A DNA stretch of 63,906 nt from Candidatus Omnitrophota bacterium (GTDB lineage: Bacteria > Omnitrophota > Omnitrophia > JAHJGZ01), in the NCBI GenBank assembly GCA_018823795.1, contig JAHJGZ010000007.1, forward strand, positions 1 through 63,906, given 5' to 3'. The notes below the pieces were generated by a model. That model saw only the letters and a list, made by a program, of their open reading frames with translations. It made no database searches and was not told the origin of the DNA. Positions 1 to 45,296 of this stretch are shown here, one piece after another. Position 1 is the stretch's first letter. Every line of letters begins with the position of its first letter. Both the position numbers and the translations under genes were made by a program.

Positions 1-109
1 CAACAATAGCTCCCTCATTATGTTGGCTGAAGCGTTTCCGTAAATCACTCGTAAAACCGGTATAAAAACGATTATCTTTTTTACTTCGTAATACGTATAT
101 ATAATACAT
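1..109 (-). CDS. GIY-YIG nuclease family protein (5' part; runs off left edge)
   Basis: Not in the ORF track. Manual translation from ATG at 109 gives MYYIYVLRSKKDNRFYTGFTSDLRKRFSQHNEGAIV, matching the YxYxL...YxG.T.DL..R..QHN pattern of small GIY-YIG proteins. Confidence 0.85.
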   Translation of the reverse strand, partial: MYYIYVLRSKKDNRFYTGFTSDLRKRFSQHNEGAIV

Positions 110-115
110 AGTGTA

Positions 116-320
116 TCTCTAACGGGGCTGGCTTCGCACTCAATTTACGGAACGTACGTGACGTAAATTGTAGGCCGTTAGGCCGTCTGCGCCTGCCTGC
201 CTGCCGGCAGGAATTAACCCCCCACCAATTATTTCAAATCATTCACATACCCCTCACATAATTGGTGTGGGGGTAAGTTCCGATATACGACTTAGCTTCA
301 TTACTCTCGCTAAGTCGTAT
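116..320. repeat. Cluster of short palindromes/REP-like hairpins
   Basis: TCTCTAACGGGG (116-127); CAATTTACG..CGTAAATTG (141-170); CCTGCCTGCCTGCCGGCAGG (192-211); ACCCCCCACCAAT..ATTGGTGTGGGGGT (217-274); ATACGACTTAGC..GCTAAGTCGTAT (285-320). Confidence 0.75.
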
Positions 321-34461: not shown

Positions 34462-34556
34462 GGGACAATACGATACGTTGGTGTAGTATACATGACAAAT
34501 TTATTTATAACGATCTATTATACGCAACAATATGCTTTGCCGTAACCTTTGCATAC

Positions 34557-34594
34557 AAAACTGGCTAGTAACTTAAAAGATACTAGCCAGTTTT
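34557..34594 (-). terminator. Intrinsic terminator after major pilin
   Basis: AAAACTGGCTAGTA..TACTAGCCAGTTTT hairpin. Confidence 0.75.
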
Positions 34595-34631
34595 TATTCT
34601 TCTATAAAAAATTTAAATTTCTAATTAACTA

Positions 34632-35099
34632 CTAAAATTGATTTTCAGCATTAGTGCTTGTATTAGCGTAAAAAATACCTGTTGTTGAGCAATATGCCCA
34701 CCCTGCACTTGTTCCAGAAATAGAACGACTATTTGCATTGGGAACATCTACGGCAACGATAAAGTTTCCGACTGCAGCCGCTGCAAGCGGATTTGCAGGC
34801 ATTTTAGAATCTAATGGACAGGTATCAAGTGAAACGCCTGACGCTGTTGACGATGCTGCAAGTTCCGCATATAACGGCCAATAATTACCATCTTTTATTG
34901 CACTTGTACCCGTTATTAGATTATTAGATTTTGCAATAGACAGTGCTGAACGTACGTTACCAGAAGTCCCTTTTACAGAAGCTAATGATGCTTCCTCCCG
35001 GATGTCTGCAAATTTTGGTATAGCAACAGCAGCTAATATACCAATGATGATAAGCACAATGACCAACTCAATTAAAGTAAAACCTTTCTTTCCTCTCAT
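34632..35099 (-). CDS. Major type IV pilin (MshA/PilA-like)
   Basis: Short leader MRGKKG|FTLIELVIV..AVAIPKF; AGGAGG RBS; own promoter and terminator. Confidence 0.88.
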   Translation of the reverse strand: MRGKKGFTLIELVIVLIIIGILAAVAIPKFADIREEASLASVKGTSGNVRSALSIAKSNNLITGTSAIKDGNYWPLYAELAASSTASGVSLDTCPLDSKMPANPLAAAAVGNFIVAVDVPNANSRSISGTSAGWAYCSTTGIFYANTSTNAENQF

Positions 35100-35169
35100 A
35101 GTCTCCTCCTTTGATTGTTTGATTGTTCTTTTTTTTCTATTATTATAATTTTTTGATCTCTATAGGTAA

Positions 35170-35198
35170 AGTATAATGCAATCTTACAAAAATTACAA
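35170..35198 (-). promoter_or_regulatory. Putative sigma70 promoter of major pilin
   Basis: TTGTAA-17 nt-TATACT. Confidence 0.5.
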
Positions 35199-35304
35199 CT
35201 AATAAAATGTCTTTGTTGAATATTTAAAATATCGCGTTAAAAATCGCACAATGTTCACACCCACAGCTTTAAAGTACTTAACGGCATATTGTTCAATAAA
35301 CTTT

Positions 35305-35409
35305 ACCCCGTGAGAGTGTGATCCTAAAAAGGATATCTATACTAAAAAAATATTCATGATGTGACGTCATGTAATAAATCTATTTAAAAAAGTCGCTCTC
35401 TAACGGGGT
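35305..35409 (+). mobile_element. MITE-like unit (105 bp), intergenic, inverted relative to pilin-leader copies
   Basis: ACCCCGTGAGAG...CTCTAACGGGGT ends; interior homologous to 39113-39221; TTTAC at both junctions. Confidence 0.75.
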
Positions 35410-36975
35410 TTACTTATAATAGGCAATAACGAGGCGCGGCCTGACATCGGGTGTAAGAGGATTATTGTCTGGATCTGGGTTGCTTTCCTGGGATTTAAAC
35501 GCATAGTAATCATCCACGCTAGCACTTTCATCGGTTATTCGGACCAAGAAACCATAATTGCTCCAATCGCCGATCACCCACTTTTGTACCGCTACAGTAA
35601 CATCAAAGCTGAGATACGCTGGTGGCGACGAAGCAAAATATTGTTCGCCTTGTTTATCACTATAATCATCATCCACATCAGTCCACGCATGGTTAGTTGA
35701 ACTTTCATTCCAGTTACCACCGGTAAACCGATGGACCTCAACGGTATCAGACCCAGCTATATGATCAGTATCGTTAAATAATATTAATTCAGCAAAGACC
35801 ACTTTTGAACTACTCGTCAAACCAGGAGGCTTCCCTGCTCCTGTTAAATCGAATTTCAATAAAGCCCGACATGATGTTACGCCAGACCCGAGATCTGCTC
35901 TGCCAACAATAAGATATTCATACGGGTCTCCACCTCCCACTGGGCTTTCTGGGTCATAGGGATCAAGATAATTATAATCGTTACCGGGAAAATCAACCAT
36001 TTTATCCTGATGTACTTCTGCAGTCGTATCGCCTGTTTCCCGCAAACCATACGCTGGTGCAATAACCGGGTAGACAATATTGAATTTTTGGCGTTCGGAT
36101 GTTGGAGAAACAAAAATATAGGTTGACAATACATTGTGGAGCGCACCACCCTCTTCTCCCTGCCAGTAAGGGTCAAACCGATTGGTATTCCATGGTGTTA
36201 ATGGTGTTATCTGTAACCGATGATATCCGTAGGGGACATTATCAGCAGTAAAATATTTGGTAGGACCACCGCCTGCGTCAGTCATAGCCTGCGTCTGATA
36301 GATCAAGTCGGTCTGCGCAATACTCGGATCAAAGACAGGTGGATGATACAGACAAACCGTTAAATCAGTATCATCAAGAATAGTATGTCCCCACTGAGGA
36401 TCTAATACCCCGAATGTCGTAGTATTAACAAAATAATCATCAGTATTACCGGTAACCGTTGCATTACCAGAAACGCTCGCATCAACAATACGAACCGCAA
36501 TATCACAACCGGTACGATACGCTTCTGTTATCGAAATAGACCTGTCAGCATCATCACCCGTACCAGCGGCAAGCTTATCCCGCCCAAGACTTGTAATCGT
36601 ATAATTGCCTCCACCACTAGCTAAACTAATCGTACCATACGCATCTTCCTCAGCCAATGAACTACCATCCGACCTTTTAAAGGCATCCACATCCGCCATA
36701 AGGGCGTTGATCTCTGTAGTCCCGGGAAACGTCGTTGCCTCTGAAAAATTACCGGTGTTACTACCCGCATCATTGTGACACAAATATCGATGTCCTATGA
36801 GGCGGGCTTCGACACCGCGCAGCCGCTGCCATGATAATTGTCCACGCTCCGCTGAAACAACCTCATTTAATAAGTACATTGACGTAGACAACACTATCGT
36901 AGATAAAACTATCAAAACGATGATACTTACTAAAACAAATCCTTGTTTTTTTATGCTCCTATGACTTTTATTCAT
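35410..36975 (-). CDS. Minor pilin/adhesin with C-terminal DNRLRE-like domain
   Basis: KKQG|FVLV hydrophobic N-terminus; C-terminal RALLKFDL..FDVT.AVQ.W..NYGFL..PRLVIAY. Confidence 0.65.
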   Translation of the reverse strand: MNKSHRSIKKQGFVLVSIIVLIVLSTIVLSTSMYLLNEVVSAERGQLSWQRLRGVEARLIGHRYLCHNDAGSNTGNFSEATTFPGTTEINALMADVDAFKRSDGSSLAEEDAYGTISLASGGGNYTITSLGRDKLAAGTGDDADRSISITEAYRTGCDIAVRIVDASVSGNATVTGNTDDYFVNTTTFGVLDPQWGHTILDDTDLTVCLYHPPVFDPSIAQTDLIYQTQAMTDAGGGPTKYFTADNVPYGYHRLQITPLTPWNTNRFDPYWQGEEGGALHNVLSTYIFVSPTSERQKFNIVYPVIAPAYGLRETGDTTAEVHQDKMVDFPGNDYNYLDPYDPESPVGGGDPYEYLIVGRADLGSGVTSCRALLKFDLTGAGKPPGLTSSSKVVFAELILFNDTDHIAGSDTVEVHRFTGGNWNESSTNHAWTDVDDDYSDKQGEQYFASSPPAYLSFDVTVAVQKWVIGDWSNYGFLVRITDESASVDDYYAFKSQESNPDPDNNPLTPDVRPRLVIAYYK

Positions 36976-37096
36976 ATCGTATTTATCTCATTATCCCCCT
37001 TGAGAAAGCATCTTTTCGTACAGAACATAATGACTCCCACTTTTATTAATAAGTTATATGGTACAAGAAATAACACTCGCCCTTAGAACTTAAATT

Positions 37097-38350
37097 TCAA
37101 TTGAGTATTACATCATAGCTTCCCGTTTCATCCGGCGACAACACGCCCGGTAGCCGCACTTCAAAGCACTGGGTCACATTCAATCCACGGGGATATACCG
37201 TAATCACTTTTTGGATATATGTTTCGCCATTCCCCGCAAGGTCATCAAGACCGGCTAAATCATCTTGATGGCAAAATTCGCCCTGCTGCGCCGAACCTTT
37301 TGGCGTTGGTACAACCGATACTAAATAAAATCCTGCGGGGAGATTAATAACCCTCACCGCACCTGAATCATACGTTATATCGGTACCCGCCGGCCCTCCG
37401 GCAGCTCCACCACCTGCATTTGATACAAAATAGTAGTGAGCGTTAGAACCAAAAGTAGTTATGTCTACCCGATATATCTGATGAAAATAGTAAGCAGTCT
37501 CTGCTGCATGATTTAATCGGAGTAATGTTCCGTTGGCATCTTTGATAAAGATTGCTATTTTATTTCTCGTATAGGCATAGGTACTAGTATCCATTAGATA
37601 GGTAATATTCTGCTCAAAACGGTCGGCACCCCCACCATCGGTTAATGAGCCAGTAGGGGGTATACTGTAATACCCGTCACTTCCGTAACTTTCAATTTTA
37701 CGTTCATAATCACTACCAAACTCATTCCATCGAAACCGATATTCCTTTCCCCATTCATCCATTAAAAAATCGTGTATACCTGCCTCGGTAATCCCCTTCG
37801 GTTCTGCCGTTAATTCATACATTACAAGCGCAACTCCATCCCGATCATCACCTGCCGGCCAACCATGATGCAGCCCAAAATAGCCAAAACCTGCCTGATG
37901 GCCAGTCTGAACTTCTTCAGGCTCTCCTACCATTGCATGAGCTACTTTTTCCATCTACGTCATCGTCTTTTTGTATCTATTCGCATCAATCAAGTCATGC
38001 GATAATGACGCACCCGCAAGAAGAACCACGGTCATAATGACAAATCCTATAAGTAATTCTAAGAGGCTGAACCCCGTTAGAGAACGATCTTTAAATAAAC
38101 ATTTTTTACCTACAATAATATTATGAATATTTTTTTTAGTGGAGACACTCTTTTGGCAAGGGGTATACTCTAACGGGGTGAACCCGGTTAGAGAACGATC
38201 TTTAAAGAAAGATTTTGTAAATCTCATAAGACTATAACTATTTTTTTTAGTATATACCCTTTTTTTACTAGGGACGCACTCTAACGGGGTGAACCCTATT
38301 ACAGCGCGTTTTTTAATAACAAGATTTTGTAAAGTATCTGTTTTCATCAT
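37097..38350 (-). pseudogene. Prepilin-like gene interrupted by in-frame TAG (37955-37957)
   Basis: ORFs 37955-38500 and 37097-37954 are in the same frame and abut. GFSLLEL...YKKTMT*MEKV aligns with paralog YKATVKEMKQ. Likely start at MMKTDT. Confidence 0.75.
38071..38290 (-). mobile_element. Two tandem 109-bp MITE-like units (38071-38179, 38182-38290) in a prepilin leader
   Basis: Terminal inverted repeats ACCCCGTTAGAG/CTCTAACGGGGT; 111-bp period equals 37 codons. Confidence 0.8.
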
Positions 38351-38357
38351 GAACTCA

Positions 38358-39266
38358 CTATATCTCAAGAGCATTAAGAGCGCCCGGTAAACGCATAACA
38401 ACAACATGAACCCGACTTGCTCCTTTTGGATAGACAACAATATCTTGAGAAAAAGTAGTATTCCCTTCATTAAGACAATTTTTCCAATTAGTACCGCCAC
38501 TGCCCGAATTATCCTGAACCGTAACGACCACGGGATGTGTTCCTACATCAACACCCGTTACACTAAAGATACCCGCACTATATGCTGCAGCCCCACCAGA
38601 CAACGTTACCGAGGTTATCTGGTAATTCGATTGAGTATCATTCCCCCGCAAAAGGTTTCCTTTTATATCGTATACCATAATCCTTACAATGTTGTTTGTA
38701 TATAACAACTTATTAATGGTAAGGACGATATCTTCATCGAAAGGATCACCGCTCGCTGCACCATCAAGGCCATCCCGCCCACGACTGGTCACCGTAATCA
38801 GGCCAGCTGCATCAGCATACACATAATCCCTTCCCCATGCATCTTTATCATAGTCAGTATTTGCACGAAAATAACTTGAAATATTACTTAATGCAGCCGG
38901 CCAAGAACCATTATCTCCCACATAGCCAAAATCTACCCGCTGTTTTCCTTCAACCGCATTCTCATCGCCGACCAAAGCTTTCTTTATCTGTTTCATTTCT
39001 TTTACTGTTGCTTTATACTTGGATACTTCAACACTATCCCCCATACCCCGGATACCGACCGCACCAACAATACCAATAATAACAAGGACTAAAATAAATT
39101 CTATAAGGGTGAACCCCGTTAGAGAACGACCTTTTAATAAATATTTCTTACCGACAATAACATCGTGAATATCTTTTTTAGCATAGATATTCTTTTGAGG
39201 GAGATTACACTCTAACGGGGTGAACCCCGTTAAGGAAAAAACTTTTTTCTTCATCAGCTGTTTCAT
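38358..39266 (-). CDS. Prepilin/GspG-like pseudopilin with repeat-expanded leader
   Basis: SLTG|FTLIEFILV, DFGY and DAWGRDY motifs. Confidence 0.8.
   Translation of the reverse strand: MKQLMKKKVFSLTGFTPLECNLPQKNIYAKKDIHDVIVGKKYLLKGRSLTGFTLIEFILVLVIIGIVGAVGIRGMGDSVEVSKYKATVKEMKQIKKALVGDENAVEGKQRVDFGYVGDNGSWPAALSNISSYFRANTDYDKDAWGRDYVYADAAGLITVTSRGRDGLDGAASGDPFDEDIVLTINKLLYTNNIVRIMVYDIKGNLLRGNDTQSNYQITSVTLSGGAAAYSAGIFSVTGVDVGTHPVVVTVQDNSGSGGTNWKNCLNEGNTTFSQDIVVYPKGASRVHVVVMRLPGALNALEI
39113..39235 (-). mobile_element. 109-bp MITE-like unit (39113-39221) plus adjacent lone end
   Basis: Same terminal inverted repeats; junction palindrome TCTAACGGGGTGAACCCCGTTA. Confidence 0.8.
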
Positions 39267-39314
39267 GGATCTTTTTATATTTTTTATTGTTTATAAATTG
39301 CGTGTATCTTTTTT

Positions 39315-40442
39315 TTATAATTCCTTAACATCGACAACACCGGGCAACCGAAATTCAATATAATTGGGAACTTTTGGACTTTTTGGATATATGGGAACCC
39401 ATTGAGAAAGAGAACTATTCCCCCGCATTAAATCATCTCTATGATCTATTTTTCCTGCTGAATTCTCACCCGGCCACGACGAATAAGTGGTAGGATACAC
39501 TACTATGCGATAAAAACCGCAGGGAATAAAATATTCTGTCGCTCCTTGAACATTCGCAAATATACCATGAGAATAAAATAATTCATACCCGCTCGCTCCC
39601 TCAGTCTCAAGGATAGTATTACCATCAACATCGATAACATCCACCTGGTAAATCTGATGATCATAATTGGCACCTGCATAACCGCGAAGGATTGTCCCAT
39701 TCACATCCATGACGTTCATAAGCAAAAGATTTTCTGTATAGAGATCCTGGCGTATGATAATGTGAAAGTCTCCATAAAAAATCGTTGTCGTCCCACCCGC
39801 TGCACCATCTCTGCCTAAACATTTAATCTCAACTGCATCATAATCGGTTCCTCCTAACGTAATAGTTTCTGTGGTACTATACACAAAATCATTTCCCCAG
39901 GCATCCTGTTTATAGCTGTCAGCCACATTGGCAGCACCGATTGTTTCTTTTTGAGGTGCAGGAGGAAGGAAATCTGCTAGCCCAGAATTTGCGGGGGTGA
40001 CCGCATCATGCCCATCAGTAGGAACCTCATCACCATTTTCTGGATTAGGAAATACTCCATACCGCTCCACAAAGCCGAAATCGACCCGCGTGCCTAAATT
40101 ATTAAGCCGCTCATCACCGATAAGAGCCCGTCGTATGGTAACCATGGTATGGCAACTCTCGACATATTTTTGCGCATCAATGGCATACACCGCGTAGCGA
40201 GACCCCGTAATAGCAATAATCGAAAGAATAATGAGAACAAGAAGAACTTCAAGAAGGGTAAACCCCATTAGAGAACGATTTTTAAATATACATTTTTTAC
40301 CTATAATAATATCATGAATGTTTTTTTTAGTAGGGATACTTTCTTGGCCAGGGACATACTCTAACGGGGTAAACCCCGTTAGAGAACGATTTTTAAAGAA
40401 ATATTTTGTACATCTCATACTAGTATGACCACTTTTTAGCAT
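39315..40442 (-). CDS. Prepilin/GspG-like pseudopilin with repeat-expanded leader
   Basis: SLMG|FTLLEVLLV, RVDFGF and DAWGNDF motifs; start codon lies within a repeat unit. Confidence 0.8.
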   Translation of the reverse strand: MLKSGHTSMRCTKYFFKNRSLTGFTPLEYVPGQESIPTKKNIHDIIIGKKCIFKNRSLMGFTLLEVLLVLIILSIIAITGSRYAVYAIDAQKYVESCHTMVTIRRALIGDERLNNLGTRVDFGFVERYGVFPNPENGDEVPTDGHDAVTPANSGLADFLPPAPQKETIGAANVADSYKQDAWGNDFVYSTTETITLGGTDYDAVEIKCLGRDGAAGGTTTIFYGDFHIIIRQDLYTENLLLMNVMDVNGTILRGYAGANYDHQIYQVDVIDVDGNTILETEGASGYELFYSHGIFANVQGATEYFIPCGFYRIVVYPTTYSSWPGENSAGKIDHRDDLMRGNSSLSQWVPIYPKSPKVPNYIEFRLPGVVDVKEL

Positions 40443-40479
40443 TCACATTTTTGCTTTTCGTATCACACTCTAACGGGGT
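40262..40479 (-). mobile_element. Two tandem MITE-like units (40262-40370, 40373-40479)
   Basis: Same terminal inverted repeats; 109 and 107 bp. Confidence 0.8.
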
Positions 40480-40618
40480 AAAGTTTTGCAAAGATTGTAT
40501 GCTTTGTAAGCGATTTCTTCGCATGTTTTATTTAGACAATTAAAAAAATATCCACTCTGAAACATCTTTATATAATACTTCAAACAAAAAACATCGCAAC
40601 GCACTCTTCTTTATGAGA

Positions 40619-41158
40619 CTAGCCACCGGTTCCTTCATACTGAAATGATACTTCAATATCATCAGTACCCCCGGTACTGGTAATGGTAATTGCACCATCA
40701 GTCGTTGCATACCCATAGTCAACTCCCCATGCATCTTCTAAAGAATCAGCGGTGCCATTACTATCATTATCTTTGTCATCAACATACGGACCATACCATC
40801 CAGTGCCTGAAACGGGATCTATCGCACCGTCCGCAGGAGTATTGACCAGTTCACTTAATCCGGTCGGAACTCGATACATGTGCGGTATAAACCCATGAAA
40901 CTGTGTATCAACATTGCCAGCAATAGCAGAAATAAGTTCCGCCATTTCTGCCTTTGTAGCCTGTATCCGCGCGGTTTCTTGTAAATCCCCAAATTTAGGG
41001 ATGAGCACACTCGCTATGATGCCGATTATTACCATAACCATAACACACTCGATAAGGGTAAACCCGGTTAAAGAACGATCTTTAAAGGAATGTTTTTGTG
41101 ATATGATCGATTGGTTTTTTCCGGCACGTGGTACCATGGTGTGTGTTCTCTTCTGCAT
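40619..41158 (-). CDS. GspG-like prepilin (degenerate unit end in leader at ~41062-41090)
   Basis: FKDRSLTG|FTLIECV, W.GPY and DAWG motifs. Confidence 0.8.
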   Translation of the reverse strand: MQKRTHTMVPRAGKNQSIISQKHSFKDRSLTGFTLIECVMVMVIIGIIASVLIPKFGDLQETARIQATKAEMAELISAIAGNVDTQFHGFIPHMYRVPTGLSELVNTPADGAIDPVSGTGWYGPYVDDKDNDSNGTADSLEDAWGVDYGYATTDGAITITSTGGTDDIEVSFQYEGTGG

Positions 41159-41203
41159 GAGGACTGTTTAAGAAATAAATCTATCGAATTAACGTTTTGT
41201 TAT

Positions 41204-41770
41204 TCACGAATTCTTTATATTGACGACAATATTACCACCACCACCGCCGGTACTCGTAATCGTTGCAGCACCCGCAGCATAAACATACGCATTGCCCCAT
41301 GCATCGTACAATATATCAATATTGCCATCTCGTTCTCGTACATCAATATACGGACCGTTCCATCCTGTTTGGGTCAGTGGATCATAATCGGCTTGAGCAT
41401 CTTGAGTATATAATTCTACCAATCCGGGAGCCCCATCCACCGGCAATCTTCCCATATCATCATAATATCCTCTAAACCCTTGTGAAGCATCGCCAATAAT
41501 TGCTCGCACGAGTTCCATCATCTCCTTTTCGGTTGCACTACGCCGTGCATTGTTAGTAATCTCTCCCATTTTAGGAATAGCAACCGCTGAGACAAGTGCT
41601 AAGATGACAATTACCAGAATTAACTCTGTTAAAGAAAATCCTGCGGTGTTGTCTACTGATGCTTTATGTCTTTGTAGAAATTTATTCAAAAGACTCTTTT
41701 TGAGAGGTGTAGTGACATTATTAGAAATTCTTTTTTTACTATTCATAAATATCTTTTTGAAGACGCACAC
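41204..41770 (-). CDS. GspG-like prepilin
   Basis: G|FSLTELILV..AIPK, WNGPY and DAWGNAY motifs; start uncertain. Confidence 0.82.
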   Translation of the reverse strand: MCVFKKIFMNSKKRISNNVTTPLKKSLLNKFLQRHKASVDNTAGFSLTELILVIVILALVSAVAIPKMGEITNNARRSATEKEMMELVRAIIGDASQGFRGYYDDMGRLPVDGAPGLVELYTQDAQADYDPLTQTGWNGPYIDVRERDGNIDILYDAWGNAYVYAAGAATITSTGGGGGNIVVNIKNS

Positions 41771-42297
41771 TACTCGCCCACCTTGACAACAATATCATCC
41801 GCCGTACTAGAAGTTTTATCAGGCCCATCGCTTGTAATGGTTGACGGAGAGCCAACAAAATCAGGAACATAGGGCTGGTCCCATGCATCGTACAGGATGT
41901 CTAATTCAAGCTCACCACCATCACCTAAAATATCCCTCTTGCGCTGGTCAATATACGGGCCATTCCAACCTGTTTTGGTAAAAGGGTTATAGGGAGATTC
42001 ACCACTACTGGAATATAAATTTGATAACTGTGTTGGTAATGATCCTATATCATCAAGATATCCCTGAAAACCGGTTTCAGGATCACCAATGATCGCCCGC
42101 ACGAGCTCCATCATCTCCTTTTCTGTCGCACTAATTCGTGCATTCTCAGCAATTTCCCCCATTTTAGGAATAGCAACTGCTGCAATAATCGCCAAGATGA
42201 CAATGACAAGGATTAATTCCGTTAAAGAAAAGCCTCTGGAATGAAGTCTCATATCCCGCTCGACGTCTACATGCCCTCTTCTTTTTTTTGCTTTCAT
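41770..42297 (-). CDS. GspG-like prepilin
   Basis: G|FSLTELILV, WNGPY, DAW and SDGPD...DDI motifs. Confidence 0.85.
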   Translation of the reverse strand: MKAKKRRGHVDVERDMRLHSRGFSLTELILVIVILAIIAAVAIPKMGEIAENARISATEKEMMELVRAIIGDPETGFQGYLDDIGSLPTQLSNLYSSSGESPYNPFTKTGWNGPYIDQRKRDILGDGGELELDILYDAWDQPYVPDFVGSPSTITSDGPDKTSSTADDIVVKVGE

Positions 42298-42346
42298 AGC
42301 CTCACCCTTACCGTTTATACATTTTAATAATAACTTTTGTATTATA

Positions 42347-43567
42347 TTAATGAGCGGTCTGTGAACCTGACATACTCCATAATGGTAAAAATACTCCGAG
42401 TGCTAAAACAACGACAATGCCAGCGATAAATAACAAGAGGAGTGGTTCGAGCAACAATGTTAAATTATGAATAGTATAATCCGATTCTCGCTCATAGTAA
42501 TCAGCTACCATTTCCATCAACTCATCAATTCTTCCTGCCTCCTCGCCGGAGGCAACCATCTGTATAATCATGTCAGGAAAAACAGTTTCTTCGCTCATAG
42601 ACGCTGCTATTGATTTTCCTTCACGCACTTTTTCTTTTACATTGTTCATTGCCCTAGTAAGAACAACATTGTCGGCTGTTTGCCCTGCTAAATTCAACGT
42701 TTCTACGATAGGAACACCGCTTTTGACCAGCGTTCCTATCGTACGAGCAAAACGACACATAAAAATTTTAGTGAACAAAGGGCCAAAAATATATACCTTC
42801 AAAAGAAAGCGATGCCATAACAATTTTCCTACGGGAGTACGGGTAATAAATCGAAAGGTACAAATAAATACGACAATACCAATGATGACATAATACCAAT
42901 AATGTTGCAAAAAATAACTTGATCGCATTAAAATCTTTGTAAAAATAGGAATTTCAACATTAAATCCTTCGAAGAGTGTCATAAAACGAGGGAGTACAAA
43001 AAGACCAATGGCAAGGATCGCTATAATAATGACCGCAATAACGATGACCGGATAACTCATAGCCTGTTTAATCTTCGCTGTTACTTCCTGATCCTTCTCT
43101 ATCGACTCAGCAAGCCGGCTTAAAACTTCAGGCAACGAACCAGATGCCTCACCGGCTTTGATAGTACTACAATATATTTTATTAAATGCTTTAGGATACT
43201 TTGTAAGCGTAGCGGAAAAACTTGAGCCACTTTCAATATCGCGTCGAATGTCCTCAAGCATTCCTCTCATTGTTTTATTTTTAGTTGAATTTGATAAAGA
43301 CTTGATCCCCTTTACTAACGGCAACCCTGCGATACACAACGCATACATTTGTCGCGTGAAAAGCATCACATCTTTTATACTGACTCCTCCTTTAAGAAAA
43401 AACAATTTATCAGCAAAAGAAAAGCGGGTACTTTGTTCTTTCAATACCAGTAATACCATTCCCATTTCTTTAAACCGCTGCGCAGCATTTTGTGGGGAAT
43501 CAGCACGTATAACTCCTTCATTAAGTTTTCCTTTTTTATCACGTGCTTTATACTGATACGTTTTCAT
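42347..43567 (-). CDS. pilC: Type II secretion F/PilC platform protein
   Basis: AGEASGSL, AMSYP, SGVPI, GEEAG and LLEP motifs. Confidence 0.9.
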   Translation of the reverse strand: MKTYQYKARDKKGKLNEGVIRADSPQNAAQRFKEMGMVLLVLKEQSTRFSFADKLFFLKGGVSIKDVMLFTRQMYALCIAGLPLVKGIKSLSNSTKNKTMRGMLEDIRRDIESGSSFSATLTKYPKAFNKIYCSTIKAGEASGSLPEVLSRLAESIEKDQEVTAKIKQAMSYPVIVIAVIIIAILAIGLFVLPRFMTLFEGFNVEIPIFTKILMRSSYFLQHYWYYVIIGIVVFICTFRFITRTPVGKLLWHRFLLKVYIFGPLFTKIFMCRFARTIGTLVKSGVPIVETLNLAGQTADNVVLTRAMNNVKEKVREGKSIAASMSEETVFPDMIIQMVASGEEAGRIDELMEMVADYYERESDYTIHNLTLLLEPLLLLFIAGIVVVLALGVFLPLWSMSGSQTAH

Positions 43568-43622: not shown

Positions 43623-45296
43623 CTAAAGATATTTCGTGGCCTTTATAACTTCGTCGGGTGTTGTGATACCCGCTTTAATTTTGTCAACGCCATCATCACG
43701 CAGTGATAGCATCCCCTCTTTTAAAGCAATTTTACGTATTTCAAGATGAGTTTCCTTATGGGTAATCGCTTCTTGCAAGCGTGCTGATACTTCCATCAGT
43801 TCAAAAATTGCTATGCGACCATGATATCCTGTATTGCGACACTGCTGACATCCTTTTCCTCTATAATATTTCATGTCTGTATGAAAAAGACGTAATTCTT
43901 CAATAATTTCCTTTGACGGAGTATATTCTTCCTTACAATCGGGACAAATAACGCGTACCAAACGTTGCGCTATTGCTCCTACTAATGTTGAAGCAACAAG
44001 AAAATGTTCGACCCCCATCTCAGTAAATCGGCTTATGCATGCGGGTGCGTCATTCGTATGCAATGTCGTAAAAACCAAATGTCCCGTCATGCCTGCTTGT
44101 ACAGCAATATTAGCTGTCTCCAAATCACGAATTTCTCCTACCAAAATGATATCAGGATCTTGTCGCATGACACAACGCAATCCGTGCGGAAAGGTAAAAC
44201 CAGTTCTCGTATTTATTTGTGACTGTCGAATTAACGGCATTTGATACTCGACGGGGTCTTCCAAGGTCATAATATTTCTATCAACCGAATTAATTCGTCC
44301 GAGCGCTGCATAAAGGGTGGTTGTCTTTCCACTCCCCGTGGGACCGCTTGTCAAAATAATACCATAGGGTCTTTTGATCCACACACTAAATTGCTCGAGA
44401 CCTTTTTTCGAAAGGCCTAAATCCTCAAGCCCCATTAAGACACTCCCTTTTTTTAGGATCCTCATGACAATATTTTCTCCATGAACAGTAGGAAAGGTCG
44501 ACAGACGAATATCAACCGGCTGATTATCAATTTTCATGTCAATTCTTCCATCCTGCGGCATTCGTCGTTCAGCAATATCCAAGTTAGCAAGAATCTTTAA
44601 ACGAGAAATAATAGCCGGTTGCAGTCGTTTCGCCGGCTGTGCAACCTCTTGTAATGCGCCATCAATACGATACCGAACACGCAATATCTCTTCCTCAGGA
44701 TTAATATGGATATCACTTGCTCTATCTCGTATCGCATGTGAAATAAATAAATTTACGAGTTTAACAATCGGCTCATCACTTGCAGCTTCAATTAATTCTG
44801 CTGGCGCATCCAGCTTGTTTGCCGCCTCTTCATCCTCTATTGTTTCGATGACATCACTGACCGAGTCTTTTACACCGTATGCTTTGTTAATGGCATCGTC
44901 AATAGCTCTGCGCAATGCTAAAATGGGTTCAACACCATAACCTGTTTTTACTCTAATTTCATCCATTGCATGAACGTCAGAAGGATTAGCAGTTGCCATC
45001 ATAAGGGTGTTTTTAATCTTAAAGAGGGGGAAAACTTGATACTTCTGGCAAAGATTCATTGTCATAAGTTCGACAACTTCTGCATCCGGAGTATAAAAAT
45101 GCAGGTTAACGCCGACAATGCCGCTATATTTCGTAAGGATATCAAGAAGAACATCCTCTTCAACAATTTGTTGTTCATACAAAATATCGACTAATGACTT
45201 CTCGGTTGAAACCATTTGTTCAGCTTTTTCAAGCTTGTCAGTAGCAACTAAATTTTGTTCGAGGAGAGAATCCTTCAGAAAATTATTTATATCCAT
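43623..45296 (-). CDS. pilB: GspE/PilB assembly ATPase
   Basis: ASDIH, GPTGSGKTTT, EDPVE, RQDPDIILVGEIRD and HTN motifs; CxxC pairs. Confidence 0.92.
   Translation of the reverse strand: MDINNFLKDSLLEQNLVATDKLEKAEQMVSTEKSLVDILYEQQIVEEDVLLDILTKYSGIVGVNLHFYTPDAEVVELMTMNLCQKYQVFPLFKIKNTLMMATANPSDVHAMDEIRVKTGYGVEPILALRRAIDDAINKAYGVKDSVSDVIETIEDEEAANKLDAPAELIEAASDEPIVKLVNLFISHAIRDRASDIHINPEEEILRVRYRIDGALQEVAQPAKRLQPAIISRLKILANLDIAERRMPQDGRIDMKIDNQPVDIRLSTFPTVHGENIVMRILKKGSVLMGLEDLGLSKKGLEQFSVWIKRPYGIILTSGPTGSGKTTTLYAALGRINSVDRNIMTLEDPVEYQMPLIRQSQINTRTGFTFPHGLRCVMRQDPDIILVGEIRDLETANIAVQAGMTGHLVFTTLHTNDAPACISRFTEMGVEHFLVASTLVGAIAQRLVRVICPDCKEEYTPSKEIIEELRLFHTDMKYYRGKGCQQCRNTGYHGRIAIFELMEVSARLQEAITHKETHLEIRKIALKEGMLSLRDDGVDKIKAGITTPDEVIKATKYL

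What the first reader, a model, noticed from the sequence alone, without database searches (positions are those of the whole stretch)
38071..41090. MITE-like unit that repeatedly sits at the G|FT prepilin cleavage codons and would be removed with the leader peptide
Seen: four consecutive prepilin genes carry a 109-bp unit ACCCCGTTAGAG...CTCTAACGGGGT, at 38071, 38182, 39113, 40262 and 40373 (107 bp), plus a degenerate end at 41062. The period is 111 bp (37 codons). Junctions read GGG TTY AC, so each unit translates as TPLE...FKDRSLTGF and regenerates G|FT directly before the pilin helix. Known: prepilin peptidase (PilD) cleaves at G|F before the hydrophobic helix and discards the leader. Inference: a DNA element targeting TTYAC in the GFT codons is neutralised post-translationally, an intein-like safe-harbour strategy that borrows a host protease. 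The major pilin and two neighbouring paralogs lack it.
Basis: partly seen in the sequence, partly recalled or inferred. Interest (0 to 1): 0.9.

Follow-up and report, generated by a model that had tools for sequence, protein, structure and literature searches.

The report
Mobile repeat hiding in pilin leaders
A small jumping DNA repeat has landed again and again, in frame, exactly where pilus-protein precursors are trimmed, so the cell's own trimming enzyme probably discards the inserted piece; in other bacteria full-size relatives carry a small DNA-cutting enzyme gene at the same spot.

Summary
Five 107-109-bp units with perfect or near-perfect 12-nt inverted ends sit at the Gly|Phe-Thr codons of three consecutive prepilin genes, and a fourth gene holds a truncated end.

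The units belong to a genome-wide family of 34 copies. They are flanked by a 2-bp duplication in a T|TY|A(C) target. Twelve of the 34 lie at prepilin cleavage codons (10 of about 20 pilin genes). Five lie open and in frame in MurE, MurG and three other genes.

A sister genus has empty MurE and MurG sites and filled/empty differences at orthologous pilins. Substitutions fall evenly on the three codon positions, so the 37-residue block is not a selected protein module.

New here: 265-285-bp units with the same ends encode an 86-aa GIY-YIG nuclease. In many phyla (Omnitrophota, Patescibacteria, Planctomycetota and others) such units, including whole nuclease genes, lie in frame between a native prepilin leader and the mature pilin.

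Removal by prepilin peptidase is inferred, not shown. In an unbiased metagenome sample only 4 of 124 units touch a pilin, so pilins are a hot spot, not the family's only home.

The parts
38071..38179 (-). 109-bp unit, proximal copy of a tandem pair in the leader of pilin gene A. Its right end (coding sense) regenerates ..SLTG|FSLLE.
   Evidence: flanking TC..TC duplication
38182..38290 (-). 109-bp unit, distal copy of the tandem pair in gene A. It carries an in-frame ATG (M-R-F-T-K..) and follows the native leader MMKTD..VIGF.
39113..39221 (-). 109-bp unit in the leader of pilin gene B, open in frame, giving a 51-aa leader.
   Evidence: the same DNA is in run X2
40262..40370 (-). 109-bp unit, proximal copy in the leader of pilin gene C; 87% identical to 38071-38179.
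40373..40479 (-). 107-bp unit, distal copy in gene C. It is not open through, and the first in-frame ATGs of gene C lie inside it.
41062..41099 (-). Truncated right end of a unit forming the last residues (..FKDRSLTG) of the 32-aa leader of pilin gene D.
   Evidence: (83-89% identity over 34-38 nt)
35305..35409 (+). 105-bp copy of the same subfamily in the opposite orientation, between the 521-aa gene and the major pilin gene. Its frames are closed by stops.
   Evidence: 73-78% identity to the pilin copies
39222..39240 (-). Relic resembling a unit right end (..VFSLTGF) at the end of the native leader of gene B.
   Evidence: read directly from the sequence, not tested statistically
37097..38350 (-). 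Pilin gene A. Leader about 93 aa from the ATG at 38350. The in-frame TAG at 37955-37957 reads GAG in the contigs of runs X1 and X2.
38358..39266 (-). Pilin gene B (302 aa).
   Evidence: TIGR02532 19.5 bits, cut-off 16.3, residues 51-71
39315..40442 (-). Pilin gene C (375 aa).
   Evidence: TIGR02532 19.8 bits, residues 60-78
40619..41158 (-). Pilin gene D (179 aa).
   Evidence: N_methyl 23 bits, cut-off 21.2
14..128 (-). Cut-off end of a 265-285-bp nuclease-bearing unit with the same end motif, at the start of the contig.
   Evidence: end motif at 117; protein match at window 14-109

Best explanation
The 109-bp units are non-autonomous members of a family of small mobile DNA elements bounded by the 12-nt inverted ends ACCCCGTTAGAG / CTCTAACGGGGT. 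They insert at T|TN|A(C) sites and duplicate the two middle bases. Unit plus duplication is 111 bp, or 37 codons, and one frame (T-P-L-E ... S-L-T-G) can stay open.

The Gly-Phe-Thr codons of the prepilin cleavage motif (GGN TTY ACN) contain this target and resemble the element's own end-to-end junction (GGGGT TY ACCCC). An insertion there lengthens the leader and rebuilds G|FT in front of the hydrophobic helix.

The next steps are inferred. Prepilin peptidase cuts after the last Gly on the cytoplasmic face and the leader is discarded, so such insertions should cost the cell little. They therefore accumulate in pilin genes, sometimes in tandem. Some subfamilies even bring their own ATG and a short basic leader.

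The likely parent elements are 265-285-bp units with the same ends that encode an 86-aa GIY-YIG nuclease of the Slx1/UPF0213 type. That this nuclease moves the units is inferred too.
For: Shown: ends, size and copy number.
- The 12-mer occurs 61 times exactly against about 0.2 expected.
- There are 34 paired units of 97-112 nt in G000.

Shown: duplication and target.
- Of the 34 units, 23 have identical TT or TC flanks, 3 differ at one base and 4 are irregular.
- T stands at -3 in 21 of the 22 non-pilin copies; A at +3 in 19 and C at +4 in 14.
- In a context-blind metagenome sample 93 of 123 units have identical 2-nt flanks (7.7 expected) and 117 of 123 have outer T..A.

Shown: insertion polymorphism.
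- MurE (536 aa against 499 aa) and MurG lack the block in G001, G003 and G009.
- G000 C167_57820 is empty and its G001 ortholog (72% identity) is filled.
- G000 C167_48758 is filled and its G001 ortholog (57%) is empty.

Shown: in-frame coding copies.
- They lie in MurE, MurG, a 6420-aa ORF, an NHL-repeat protein and a radical-SAM/SPASM protein.

Shown: no protein-level selection.
- Substitutions are even over codon positions, for example 6/8/8, 10/9/9 and 7/9/8.
- The 24 end bases change less than the interior.

Shown: pilin hot spot.
- 12 of 34 units lie in 10 of 20 pilin genes. P = 8e-22 over TTYAC sites and 3.5e-8 over GGNTTYAC sites.
- In G001, 8 of the 13 units seen in the stretches I fetched are at pilins.
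- A prepilin peptidase gene is present (PF01478, 74.8 bits).

Shown: spread beyond this lineage.
- At least 117 genome stretches in many phyla carry the right end joined to F-T-x-x-E; by my arithmetic about 1 is expected.
- In 66 of 92 such matches the whole unit is open in the pilin frame, and 61 of those 66 have an upstream in-frame Met.

Shown: the nuclease units.
- PF01541, E 3e-17.
- The same ends bracket close homologs in five other genomes of the class.
- Other inverted ends bracket more distant homologs. All 9 close homologs have bracketing repeats of 13-20 nt and none of 7 distant ones does.
Against: - Cleavage of these long leaders was not tested. At 51, 60 and about 93 aa they lie far outside the 6-26 aa range quoted in the review (passages).
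- Targeting and tolerance cannot be separated with these data. Empty pilin sites in G000 read the same GGN TTY ACN as filled ones.
- Units in one gene cluster are each other's closest relatives. This fits local hopping but also spread by recombination.
- Only 4 of 124 units in the context-blind sample touch a pilin and 8 of 123 lie open in a long ORF. The family as a whole behaves as an ordinary intergenic repeat.
- No insertion or excision polymorphism was seen between the two samples laid on the window.
- No known transposase carries these ends.
- The interiors of the 109-bp units show no significant similarity to the nuclease units, so only the ends link them.
- Most G000 nuclease copies are broken; 1 of 6 whole copies is intact.
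Confidence: 0.75

Rival explanations
1. The hot spot is a matter of DNA target choice only. The enzyme prefers sites that look like the element's own end junction (GGGGT TY ACCCC), the G-F-T codons happen to match, and leader removal plays no part in the accumulation.
For: Tandem copies and insertions next to existing ends are common. The target GGGT-TY-ACCC is palindromic around the duplicated bases. Most units elsewhere lie between genes.
Against: Even among GGNTTYAC sites the pilin share is about tenfold above expectation. 66 of 92 pilin-adjacent units across phyla are kept open in frame, and their lengths are whole codons once the duplication is added, which implies selection on the reading frame. 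Nuclease genes are also joined at ..LTG to Flp-like N-termini that do not begin with TTY (2 of 120 proteins).
Confidence: 0.15
2. One or a few old insertions were spread among pilin paralogs by recombination or gene conversion through the conserved N-terminal helix codons and neighbouring units, not by repeated transposition.
For: Units of one cluster are most alike: window copies 74-87%, the C167/C62 copies 71-85%. Tandem pairs could arise by unequal crossing-over.
Against: Host pilins are far more diverged than their units: 28-29% protein identity between genes B and C and nothing detectable for gene A, against 74-87% DNA identity of the units. There is no shared sequence upstream of the units to support conversion. 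Orthologous sites in G000 and G001 carry different unit types or are empty. The same subfamily has an intergenic copy with its own TT duplication.
Confidence: 0.1
3. The units are kept because they serve the pilin genes. They supply a ribosome-binding site, a start codon and a leader, or they regulate expression through the 12-bp stem or through gain and loss of units.
For: All five C167/C62 copies keep an AAAGG-like run 6-7 nt before an in-frame ATG followed by a basic 24-residue leader. The window's distal copies and the G001 copies also carry an ATG plus a short basic leader. The ends pair into a stable stem in RNA folds (z -3.9 to -5.1 in 4 of 5 units).
Against: There is no codon-position bias. 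Half of the pilin genes, including the presumed major pilin, do without a unit. The same units sit in unrelated genes and between genes.
Confidence: 0.15
4. The 37-residue blocks are a functional repeated pro-peptide domain of these pilins, duplicated at the protein level.
For: The blocks are whole codons and open in 4 of the 5 window copies.
Against: Substitutions are even over codon positions. Copies between genes are full of stops. The same DNA sits in MurE and MurG, where relatives lack it. Pfam finds no family on the block.
Confidence: 0.03

Closest known systems
Rickettsia palindromic elements (RPEs), in-frame repeats in protein-coding genes
   Same: Short repeats of roughly 100-150 bp, inserted in frame into unrelated housekeeping genes and read through as extra peptide. 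The comparison rests on review PMC10969869 (passages seen), which cites Ogata et al. 2000 (not read). Here the equivalents are MurE, MurG, an NHL-repeat protein, a radical-SAM protein and a giant ORF.
   Different: Only the 12-nt ends pair; the body is not palindromic. There is a clear 2-bp duplication and a defined short target. Nuclease-coding relatives share the same ends. There is a hot spot at a protease cleavage site. That review does not mention pilins or signal peptides (0 occurrences).
Inteins and homing-endonuclease genes
   Same: A selfish insert lies in frame at a highly conserved motif of a conserved gene family. Full-size members encode a small endonuclease, and the insert would be removed from the protein after translation.
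   Different: Pfam finds no self-splicing (Hint) domain on the fused ORFs. Removal would be by the host's prepilin peptidase and would discard the N-terminal part rather than rejoin two exteins. The elements have inverted ends, a target duplication and many short non-coding derivatives, and most copies lie between genes. Homing was not tested.
MITEs with a 2-bp duplication (Tc1/mariner-IS630 type, TA target)
   Same: Terminal inverted repeats, a 2-bp duplication, sizes of about 30-300 bp, many dispersed copies and no transposase gene in the short forms. The TA target of mariner/Tc1 is taken from the abstract of PMC5481204 in the listing.
   Different: The duplicated bases are TT, TC or TG inside T|NN|A, never TA. 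The only protein found between such ends is an 86-aa GIY-YIG nuclease, not a DDE transposase.
Slx1 / UPF0213 (YhbQ-like) small GIY-YIG nucleases
   Same: Pfam GIY-YIG above the cut-off. The nearest solved sequence is UPF0213 protein BH0048 (1zg2, E 1e-5). The modelled domain (pLDDT about 97 over residues 21-100) matches 1zg2 and Slx1 chains best. The motif residues are conserved.
   Different: Here the gene is bracketed by 13-20-nt inverted repeats that change with the protein. It is multi-copy and often broken. In many cases it is fused in frame to a prepilin. I found no paper describing this.

Membership tests
MITE (miniature inverted-repeat transposable element) | Terminal inverted repeats | tested here: met
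   12-nt ends with 0-1 mismatch in the window copies; the ends pair in folds.
MITE (miniature inverted-repeat transposable element) | Target-site duplication | tested here: met
   Identical 2-nt flanks in 23 of 34 G000 units and in 93 of 123 metagenome units against 7.7 expected.
MITE (miniature inverted-repeat transposable element) | Small size, no transposase gene, many dispersed copies | tested here: met
   34 units of 97-112 nt spread over many contigs; the 12-mer hits lie on 40 contigs.
MITE (miniature inverted-repeat transposable element) | Empty sites in relatives or paralogs | tested here: met
   MurE, MurG and two pilin ortholog pairs.
MITE (miniature inverted-repeat transposable element) | Autonomous partner with the same ends that encodes a transposase | tested here: inconclusive
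   The only coding units with these ends encode a GIY-YIG nuclease. No pair of ends 450-4000 bp apart encloses a transposase-sized element. The genome is in 250 contigs, so an insertion sequence could be unassembled.
RPE-like in-frame coding repeat | Inserted in frame in unrelated protein genes with the ORF kept | tested here: met
   5 non-pilin genes in G000 and 2 in G001.
RPE-like in-frame coding repeat | Palindromic over most of its length | tested here: not met
   Only the ends pair.
Type IV prepilin (class III signal peptide) as host | Gly at -1, Phe at +1, Glu at +5, about 20 hydrophobic residues | tested here: met
   TIGR02532 is above its cut-off for genes B and C and N_methyl for gene D.
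Type IV prepilin (class III signal peptide) as host | Short hydrophilic leader (6-26 aa in review PMC4471445, passages seen) | tested here: not met
   The leaders are 51, 60 and about 93 aa, which is the anomaly the units create.
Type IV prepilin (class III signal peptide) as host | Dedicated prepilin peptidase in the genome | tested here: met
   PF01478, 74.8 bits, at G000 C127:6969-7319.
Type IV prepilin (class III signal peptide) as host | Cleavage after the last Gly in the cell | not testable with these tools
   Needs protein chemistry.
Intein / homing-endonuclease insert | Self-splicing Hint domain | tested here: not met
   Pfam lists only GIY-YIG and pilin families on the three fused ORFs.
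Intein / homing-endonuclease insert | Endonuclease that cuts the empty allele | not testable with these tools
   A nuclease domain is present in full-size units; its activity and target are unknown.
GIY-YIG nuclease superfamily (full-size units) | Family profile above the curated cut-off, motif residues kept, matching fold | tested here: met
   PF01541 at 63 bits against a cut-off of 22.6. Invariant Y36, R46 and E70 and near-invariant Y23 and Y25 in 38 sequences. The fold matches 1zg2, Slx1, UvrC and I-TevI domains. Which residue does what is recalled, not tested.
Tc1/mariner-IS630-derived MITE | TA target and TA duplication | tested here: not met
   The duplications are TT/AA, TG/CA, TC/GA, CC/GG and AG/CT; none of 93 is TA.

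The most novel reading that the evidence does not exclude
A previously undescribed class of minimal mobile elements: a gene of about 280 bp for an 86-aa Slx1/UPF0213-type GIY-YIG nuclease, bounded by cognate inverted ends, making a 2-bp duplication and shedding many short derivatives. It has adopted the prepilin cleavage motif as a safe harbour across Omnitrophota, Patescibacteria, Planctomycetota and other phyla. In that site the nuclease is translated as part of the prepilin leader and set free in the cytoplasm by prepilin peptidase. This would be a protease-dependent counterpart of an intein with its homing endonuclease.
Probability: 0.4. Interest if true: 0.95.

Novelty: new variant of a known kind. 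Interest (0 to 1): 0.85.

Why it matters
In-frame selfish repeats are known from Rickettsia, but why a protein tolerates them has mostly been argued from structure. Here the tolerance has a simple, testable cause: the insert lies in a part of the precursor that a dedicated host protease removes.

If cleavage is confirmed, this is a third way, beside introns and inteins, for mobile DNA to hide inside a gene. It would work on one of the most widespread protein motifs in prokaryotes.

It also matters for annotation. Pilin genes with 50-100-residue leaders, or with a nuclease domain at the N-terminus, are named 'GIY-YIG nuclease family protein' or 'GspG' in public records.

The link to a GIY-YIG nuclease with cognate inverted ends would add a nuclease family to the enzymes known to move bacterial DNA. 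It would give a 280-bp element as a candidate for the smallest autonomous one.

The uncultured lineages concerned (Omnitrophota, Patescibacteria) depend heavily on pilus-like machines, so the elements may shape their pilin repertoires.

Tried and rejected
- Descent of the 109-bp units from the nuclease units by internal deletion. Local alignment of the interiors against five nuclease units gave z-scores mostly below 3 (maximum 4.4). This is not supported, and only the ends are shared. The 130-142-bp class does share further segments with the nuclease units (by eye).
- Fixed orientation of the unit relative to the asymmetric target in copies between genes. Interiors are too diverse, and only 2 clear cases (35305 and C176_42363) agree with the pilin copies. 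Inconclusive.
- Codon choice at filled against empty pilin sites. No difference.
- BLAST of a whole unit against 40 relatives found only G000 itself. The 12-mer search then found the family in G001 (44 hits against 4 for the control) but not above the control in G002, G003, G010 or G015.
- Known RNA families. Rfam at E up to 1 on 34500-42500 gave no match on any unit, only one chance-level hit elsewhere.
- Expression. No RNA holder is listed among the public runs.
- Population polymorphism. The contigs of X1, X2 and X3 showed no form lacking a unit. The listed joints (a 66-nt skip at 40387-40454, an opposite-strand joint) lie between repeat copies and I read them as cross-matches of the repeats.
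- The structure model predicts one long helix from residue 88 to 161 across the cleavage site. This says nothing about cleavage.
- Literature. Searches found no paper on mobile repeats in prepilin leaders or on GIY-YIG genes with inverted ends. Only listings were seen, except for passages of PMC10969869 and PMC4471445.

Full report
**What is in the window.** On the minus strand lies a pilus/secretion operon. It holds GspE-like (43623-45296) and GspF-like (42347-43567) genes followed by seven pilin-type genes.

Four consecutive pilins are affected:
- Gene A, 37097-38350.
- Gene B, 38358-39266.
- Gene C, 39315-40442.
- Gene D, 40619-41158.

All four have the G|F-[TS]-L-[IL]-E motif plus a hydrophobic helix. 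Genes A, B and C carry 2, 1 and 2 units of 107-109 bp directly 5' of the Phe codon. Gene D's leader ends in a 36-38-nt fragment of a unit.

Each unit runs from ACCCCGTTAGAG to CTCTAACGGGGT. Tandem units are 111 bp apart. In the gene's frame a unit reads T-P-L-E ... S-L-T-G and the next codon is again Phe.

Leaders become 51 aa (B), 60 aa from the first ATG (C) and about 93 aa (A). A review gives 6-26 aa as usual (passages). The pattern is far beyond chance. It is reproduced without a difference in contigs of a second sample from another study.

**A dispersed family.** The whole assembly has 3.19 Mb in 250 contigs, and the window is contig C94. The 12-mer occurs 61 times exactly where about 0.2 are expected. 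Pairs of ends define three size classes:
- 34 units of 97-112 nt.
- About 15 units of 130-142 nt.
- About 8 units of 260-290 nt.

A sixth window copy, in the opposite orientation and closed by stops, lies between genes at 35305-35409.

**Target and duplication.** Of the 34 short units, 23 are flanked by identical TT or TC, 3 differ at one base and 4 are irregular. In the 22 non-pilin copies T stands at -3 in 21, A at +3 in 19 and C at +4 in 14. The site is therefore T|TY|A(C) with the two middle bases duplicated.

A context-blind sample supports this. It holds 124 units with perfect ends, 94-124 nt long, from 120 metagenome stretches. Identical 2-nt flanks occur in 93 of 123 units (7.7 expected) and outer T..A in 117 of 123. 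The duplications are TT/AA 41, TG/CA 29, TC/GA 17, CC/GG 4 and AG/CT 2.

**It has moved.** G001 is the only genome of the same family held, and it belongs to another genus. It carries the same ends: 44 hits with up to 1 mismatch against 4 for the control pattern. G002, G003, G010 and G015 do not exceed their controls.

G000 MurE and MurG each contain an open, in-frame unit. Their G001, G003 and G009 counterparts align on both sides with the block missing: MurE is 536 aa against 499 and 497 aa.

Among pilin orthologs:
- G000 C167_57820 is empty and G001 C138_680 (72% identity) is filled.
- G000 C167_48758 is filled and G001 C72_7307 (57%) is empty.
- Three G001 pilins carry, at the same G|F, one to three 46-bp palindromic mini-units that G000 lacks. 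One of these three has an empty G000 ortholog, C215_29653.

**Not a protein module.** Within subfamilies (71-87% identity) substitutions fall evenly on codon positions 1, 2 and 3. The 24 end bases change less than the interior. Copies between genes are full of stops. Folding pairs only the ends. No Rfam family matches.

**The pilin hot spot.** Twelve of the 34 units lie at the G|F of 10 of the 20 pilin genes found by motif. A Pfam six-frame scan lists 23 N_methyl matches at E up to 1, including three further weak ones.

Among the other units:
- One lies just upstream of a pilin start.
- Five lie in frame in other genes: MurE, MurG, a 6420-aa ORF, an NHL-repeat protein and a radical-SAM/SPASM protein.
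- One is nested in a nuclease unit.
- The rest lie between genes.

Taking 32 independent sites and 22 pilin sites, 10 hits compare with 0.04 expected over 17,028 TTYAC sites (P 8e-22). Over 694 GGNTTYAC sites the expectation is 1.0 (P 3.5e-8).

In the G001 stretches that I fetched, 8 of 13 units are at pilins. Nine of 14 N_methyl matches there carry a unit or a mini-unit.

Against this, only 4 of the 124 context-blind units abut a pilin N-terminus and 8 of 123 lie open in a long ORF. The family at large is an ordinary, mostly intergenic repeat, and pilins are a hot spot that is very marked in this lineage. Empty pilin sites in G000 have the same codons as filled ones.

**A coding relative.** The 265-285-bp units have the same ends and hold an ORF for an 86-aa GIY-YIG protein whose last residues (..R-F-L-S-L-T-G) are encoded by the right end. 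Evidence for the protein:
- PF01541, E 3e-17.
- Nearest solved sequence is the UPF0213 protein 1zg2.

One G000 copy (C89:3422-3679) is intact and five are broken. One of the broken copies holds a nested 110-bp unit.

Small GIY-YIG genes are multi-copy in 39 of 41 genomes of the class. The 9 closest homologs examined, from G000, G001, G002, G006, G013, G019, G020 and G039 (two), are each bracketed by inverted repeats of 13-20 nt. These are the same CCCCGTTAGAG-type ends in most, and different ends in G002 and G006. Seven more distant homologs have none.

Ends that change with the protein are what a cognate enzyme-site pair would show. The 130-142-bp class looks like an internal deletion of these units (by eye). 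The 109-bp class shares only the ends.

**Beyond this lineage.** The record titles name Omnitrophota, many Patescibacteria groups, Planctomycetota, Riflebacteria, Ratteibacteria, Elusimicrobia, Nitrospirota, Auribacterota and others.

In the 80 stretches held there are 92 matches:
- 91 are followed by a pilin-type helix.
- 66 have the left end F-T-P-x-x open in the same frame.
- 61 of those 66 have an in-frame Met further up.

Unit sizes are 10-50 codons, plus two of 92 and 94 codons.

Those two, L160 and L086, are whole nuclease genes lying in one ORF between a native leader and the mature pilin. A third, L105, has its own ATG and is fused only at its C-terminus.

The L160 ORF scores as follows:
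- GIY-YIG, E 2.9e-17 (residues 22-88).
- GspG, TIGR01710, 124 bits against a cut-off of 88.85 (residues 106-232).
- TIGR02532, above its cut-off.

A protein search with its first 135 residues, restricted to lengths 127-406 and therefore biased towards fusions, gave 197 hits. Of the best 120, 37 join ..LTG directly to F-[TS]-x-x-E plus a helix, 8 have a pilin N-terminus further on and 2 continue into Flp-like N-termini.

In 38 aligned sequences the nuclease motif residues and the Gly at -1 are invariant or nearly so. The modelled nuclease domain is confident (pLDDT about 97) and resembles 1zg2 and Slx1 best.

**How it most likely works.** The following are shown: the inverted ends, the 2-bp duplication, the short target, gain and loss between genera, the open in-frame copies, the pilin hot spot, the presence of a peptidase gene and the nuclease-coding relatives with cognate ends.

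The following are inferred:
1. An insertion at GGN-TTY-ACN adds 37 codons to the leader and rebuilds the cleavage site.
2. [quoted passage not shown] The added piece should therefore be discarded with it, so such insertions are nearly neutral and pile up.
3. Subfamilies that carry an AAAGG-like run, an ATG and a basic leader make even out-of-frame insertions harmless.
4. The GIY-YIG protein cuts at the ends and at T|NN|A sites that resemble the end junction. A 2-nt stagger would explain the duplication. That I-TevI leaves 2-nt overhangs is recalled, not from a call. That Slx1 works on branched DNA comes from the entry titles.
5. Where the whole gene sits in a leader, the peptidase would release the nuclease into the cytoplasm.

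**Comparison with known systems.** The closest are Rickettsia's in-frame repeats, inteins with homing endonucleases, and 2-bp-duplication MITEs. The present case differs from each in a defining feature (see the membership table). I therefore file the window's units as a new variant of in-frame MITEs. I keep the nuclease-in-leader reading as the bolder, unproven case.

**Caveats.**
- Cleavage is untested.
- Targeting and tolerance are not separated.
- Local recombination may add to the spread.
- The collection scans were capped, and one of them was filtered for pilin context.
- Only contigs, not reads, could be laid on the window.
- My literature check is limited to the held library and to listings.

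Noticed in passing
window 37955-37957: The in-frame TAG that splits pilin gene A into two ORFs (37097-37954 and 37955-38500) reads GAG in the contigs of runs X1 (depth 12 of 12) and X2 (4.5 of 4.5). The gene is probably whole, and the stop is a variant or an error of this assembly.
   Followed up: partly
L036:8350-8500, L031:1360-1510, L028:5940-6000 (G001): A second, 46-bp palindromic mini-unit (ACCCCGCCCTTTCT..AGAAAGRGCGGGGT plus TT, 16 codons, reading G-F-[TI]-P-P-F-L-T-T-K-G-K-E-R-A) sits one to three times at the same G|F of three G001 pilins. There is no copy in G000.
   Followed up: partly
L065 (G013) and L066 (G030), around 1430-1830: The nuclease unit lies in the 5' end of a purN-like gene. 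The first 15 or so codons (M-K-R-x-A-F-L-V-S-G-S-G-T-N-M) stand on both sides of it, and the downstream copy has its own ATG, as if the element brought or preserved a replacement gene start.
   Followed up: no
G000 C29:9933, C60:3267, C73:3772, C130:19213, C178:11042, C110:104457: The nuclease units and several 135-140-bp units are followed directly by AAAGGAG(G) and a start codon 5-9 nt further on. They therefore sit immediately upstream of the ribosome-binding site of the next gene. At the other end several copies share flanking sequence (..GCGAAGCCA), so the repeated stretch may be longer than the part between the ends.
   Followed up: no
G000 C73:3875-3984: A 110-bp unit is nested inside a nuclease unit. 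Paralogous nuclease units give the empty site (..ATGT AAACATG..), but the flanks here read TT..AA, not a direct duplication. It is one of 4 irregular cases among 34.
   Followed up: partly
G000 C115:3488-3560; proteins P0057-P0060, P0064, P0065, P0077: The same ends are read in another frame (..Y-P-V-R ... S-N-G..) inside ORFs. One example is a 73-nt unit in a 544-aa ORF of G000. Others are Patescibacteria proteins in which nuclease, a P-V-R..S-N-G-G unit and a G-F-[VI]-A-L hydrophobic N-terminus follow one another.
   Followed up: no
proteins P0042, P0053, P0054, P0056: The nuclease C-terminus ..S-L-T-G is followed by Q-x-S-L-E-[YI] and a hydrophobic helix. This looks like an Flp/Tad-type pilin cleavage site and would not contain the TTY target.
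   Followed up: no
G000 C92 (L039:1-4266): An ORF of at least 6420 codons with no Pfam match in its last 754 residues carries an in-frame unit 95 codons before its end.
   Followed up: no
window 35410-36975: A 521-aa protein inside the pilin operon has a C-terminal CBM96 / disaggregatase-repeat-like region (E 3e-7 and 5e-7) and a hydrophobic N-terminus. It may be a tip or accessory protein of the filament.
   Followed up: no
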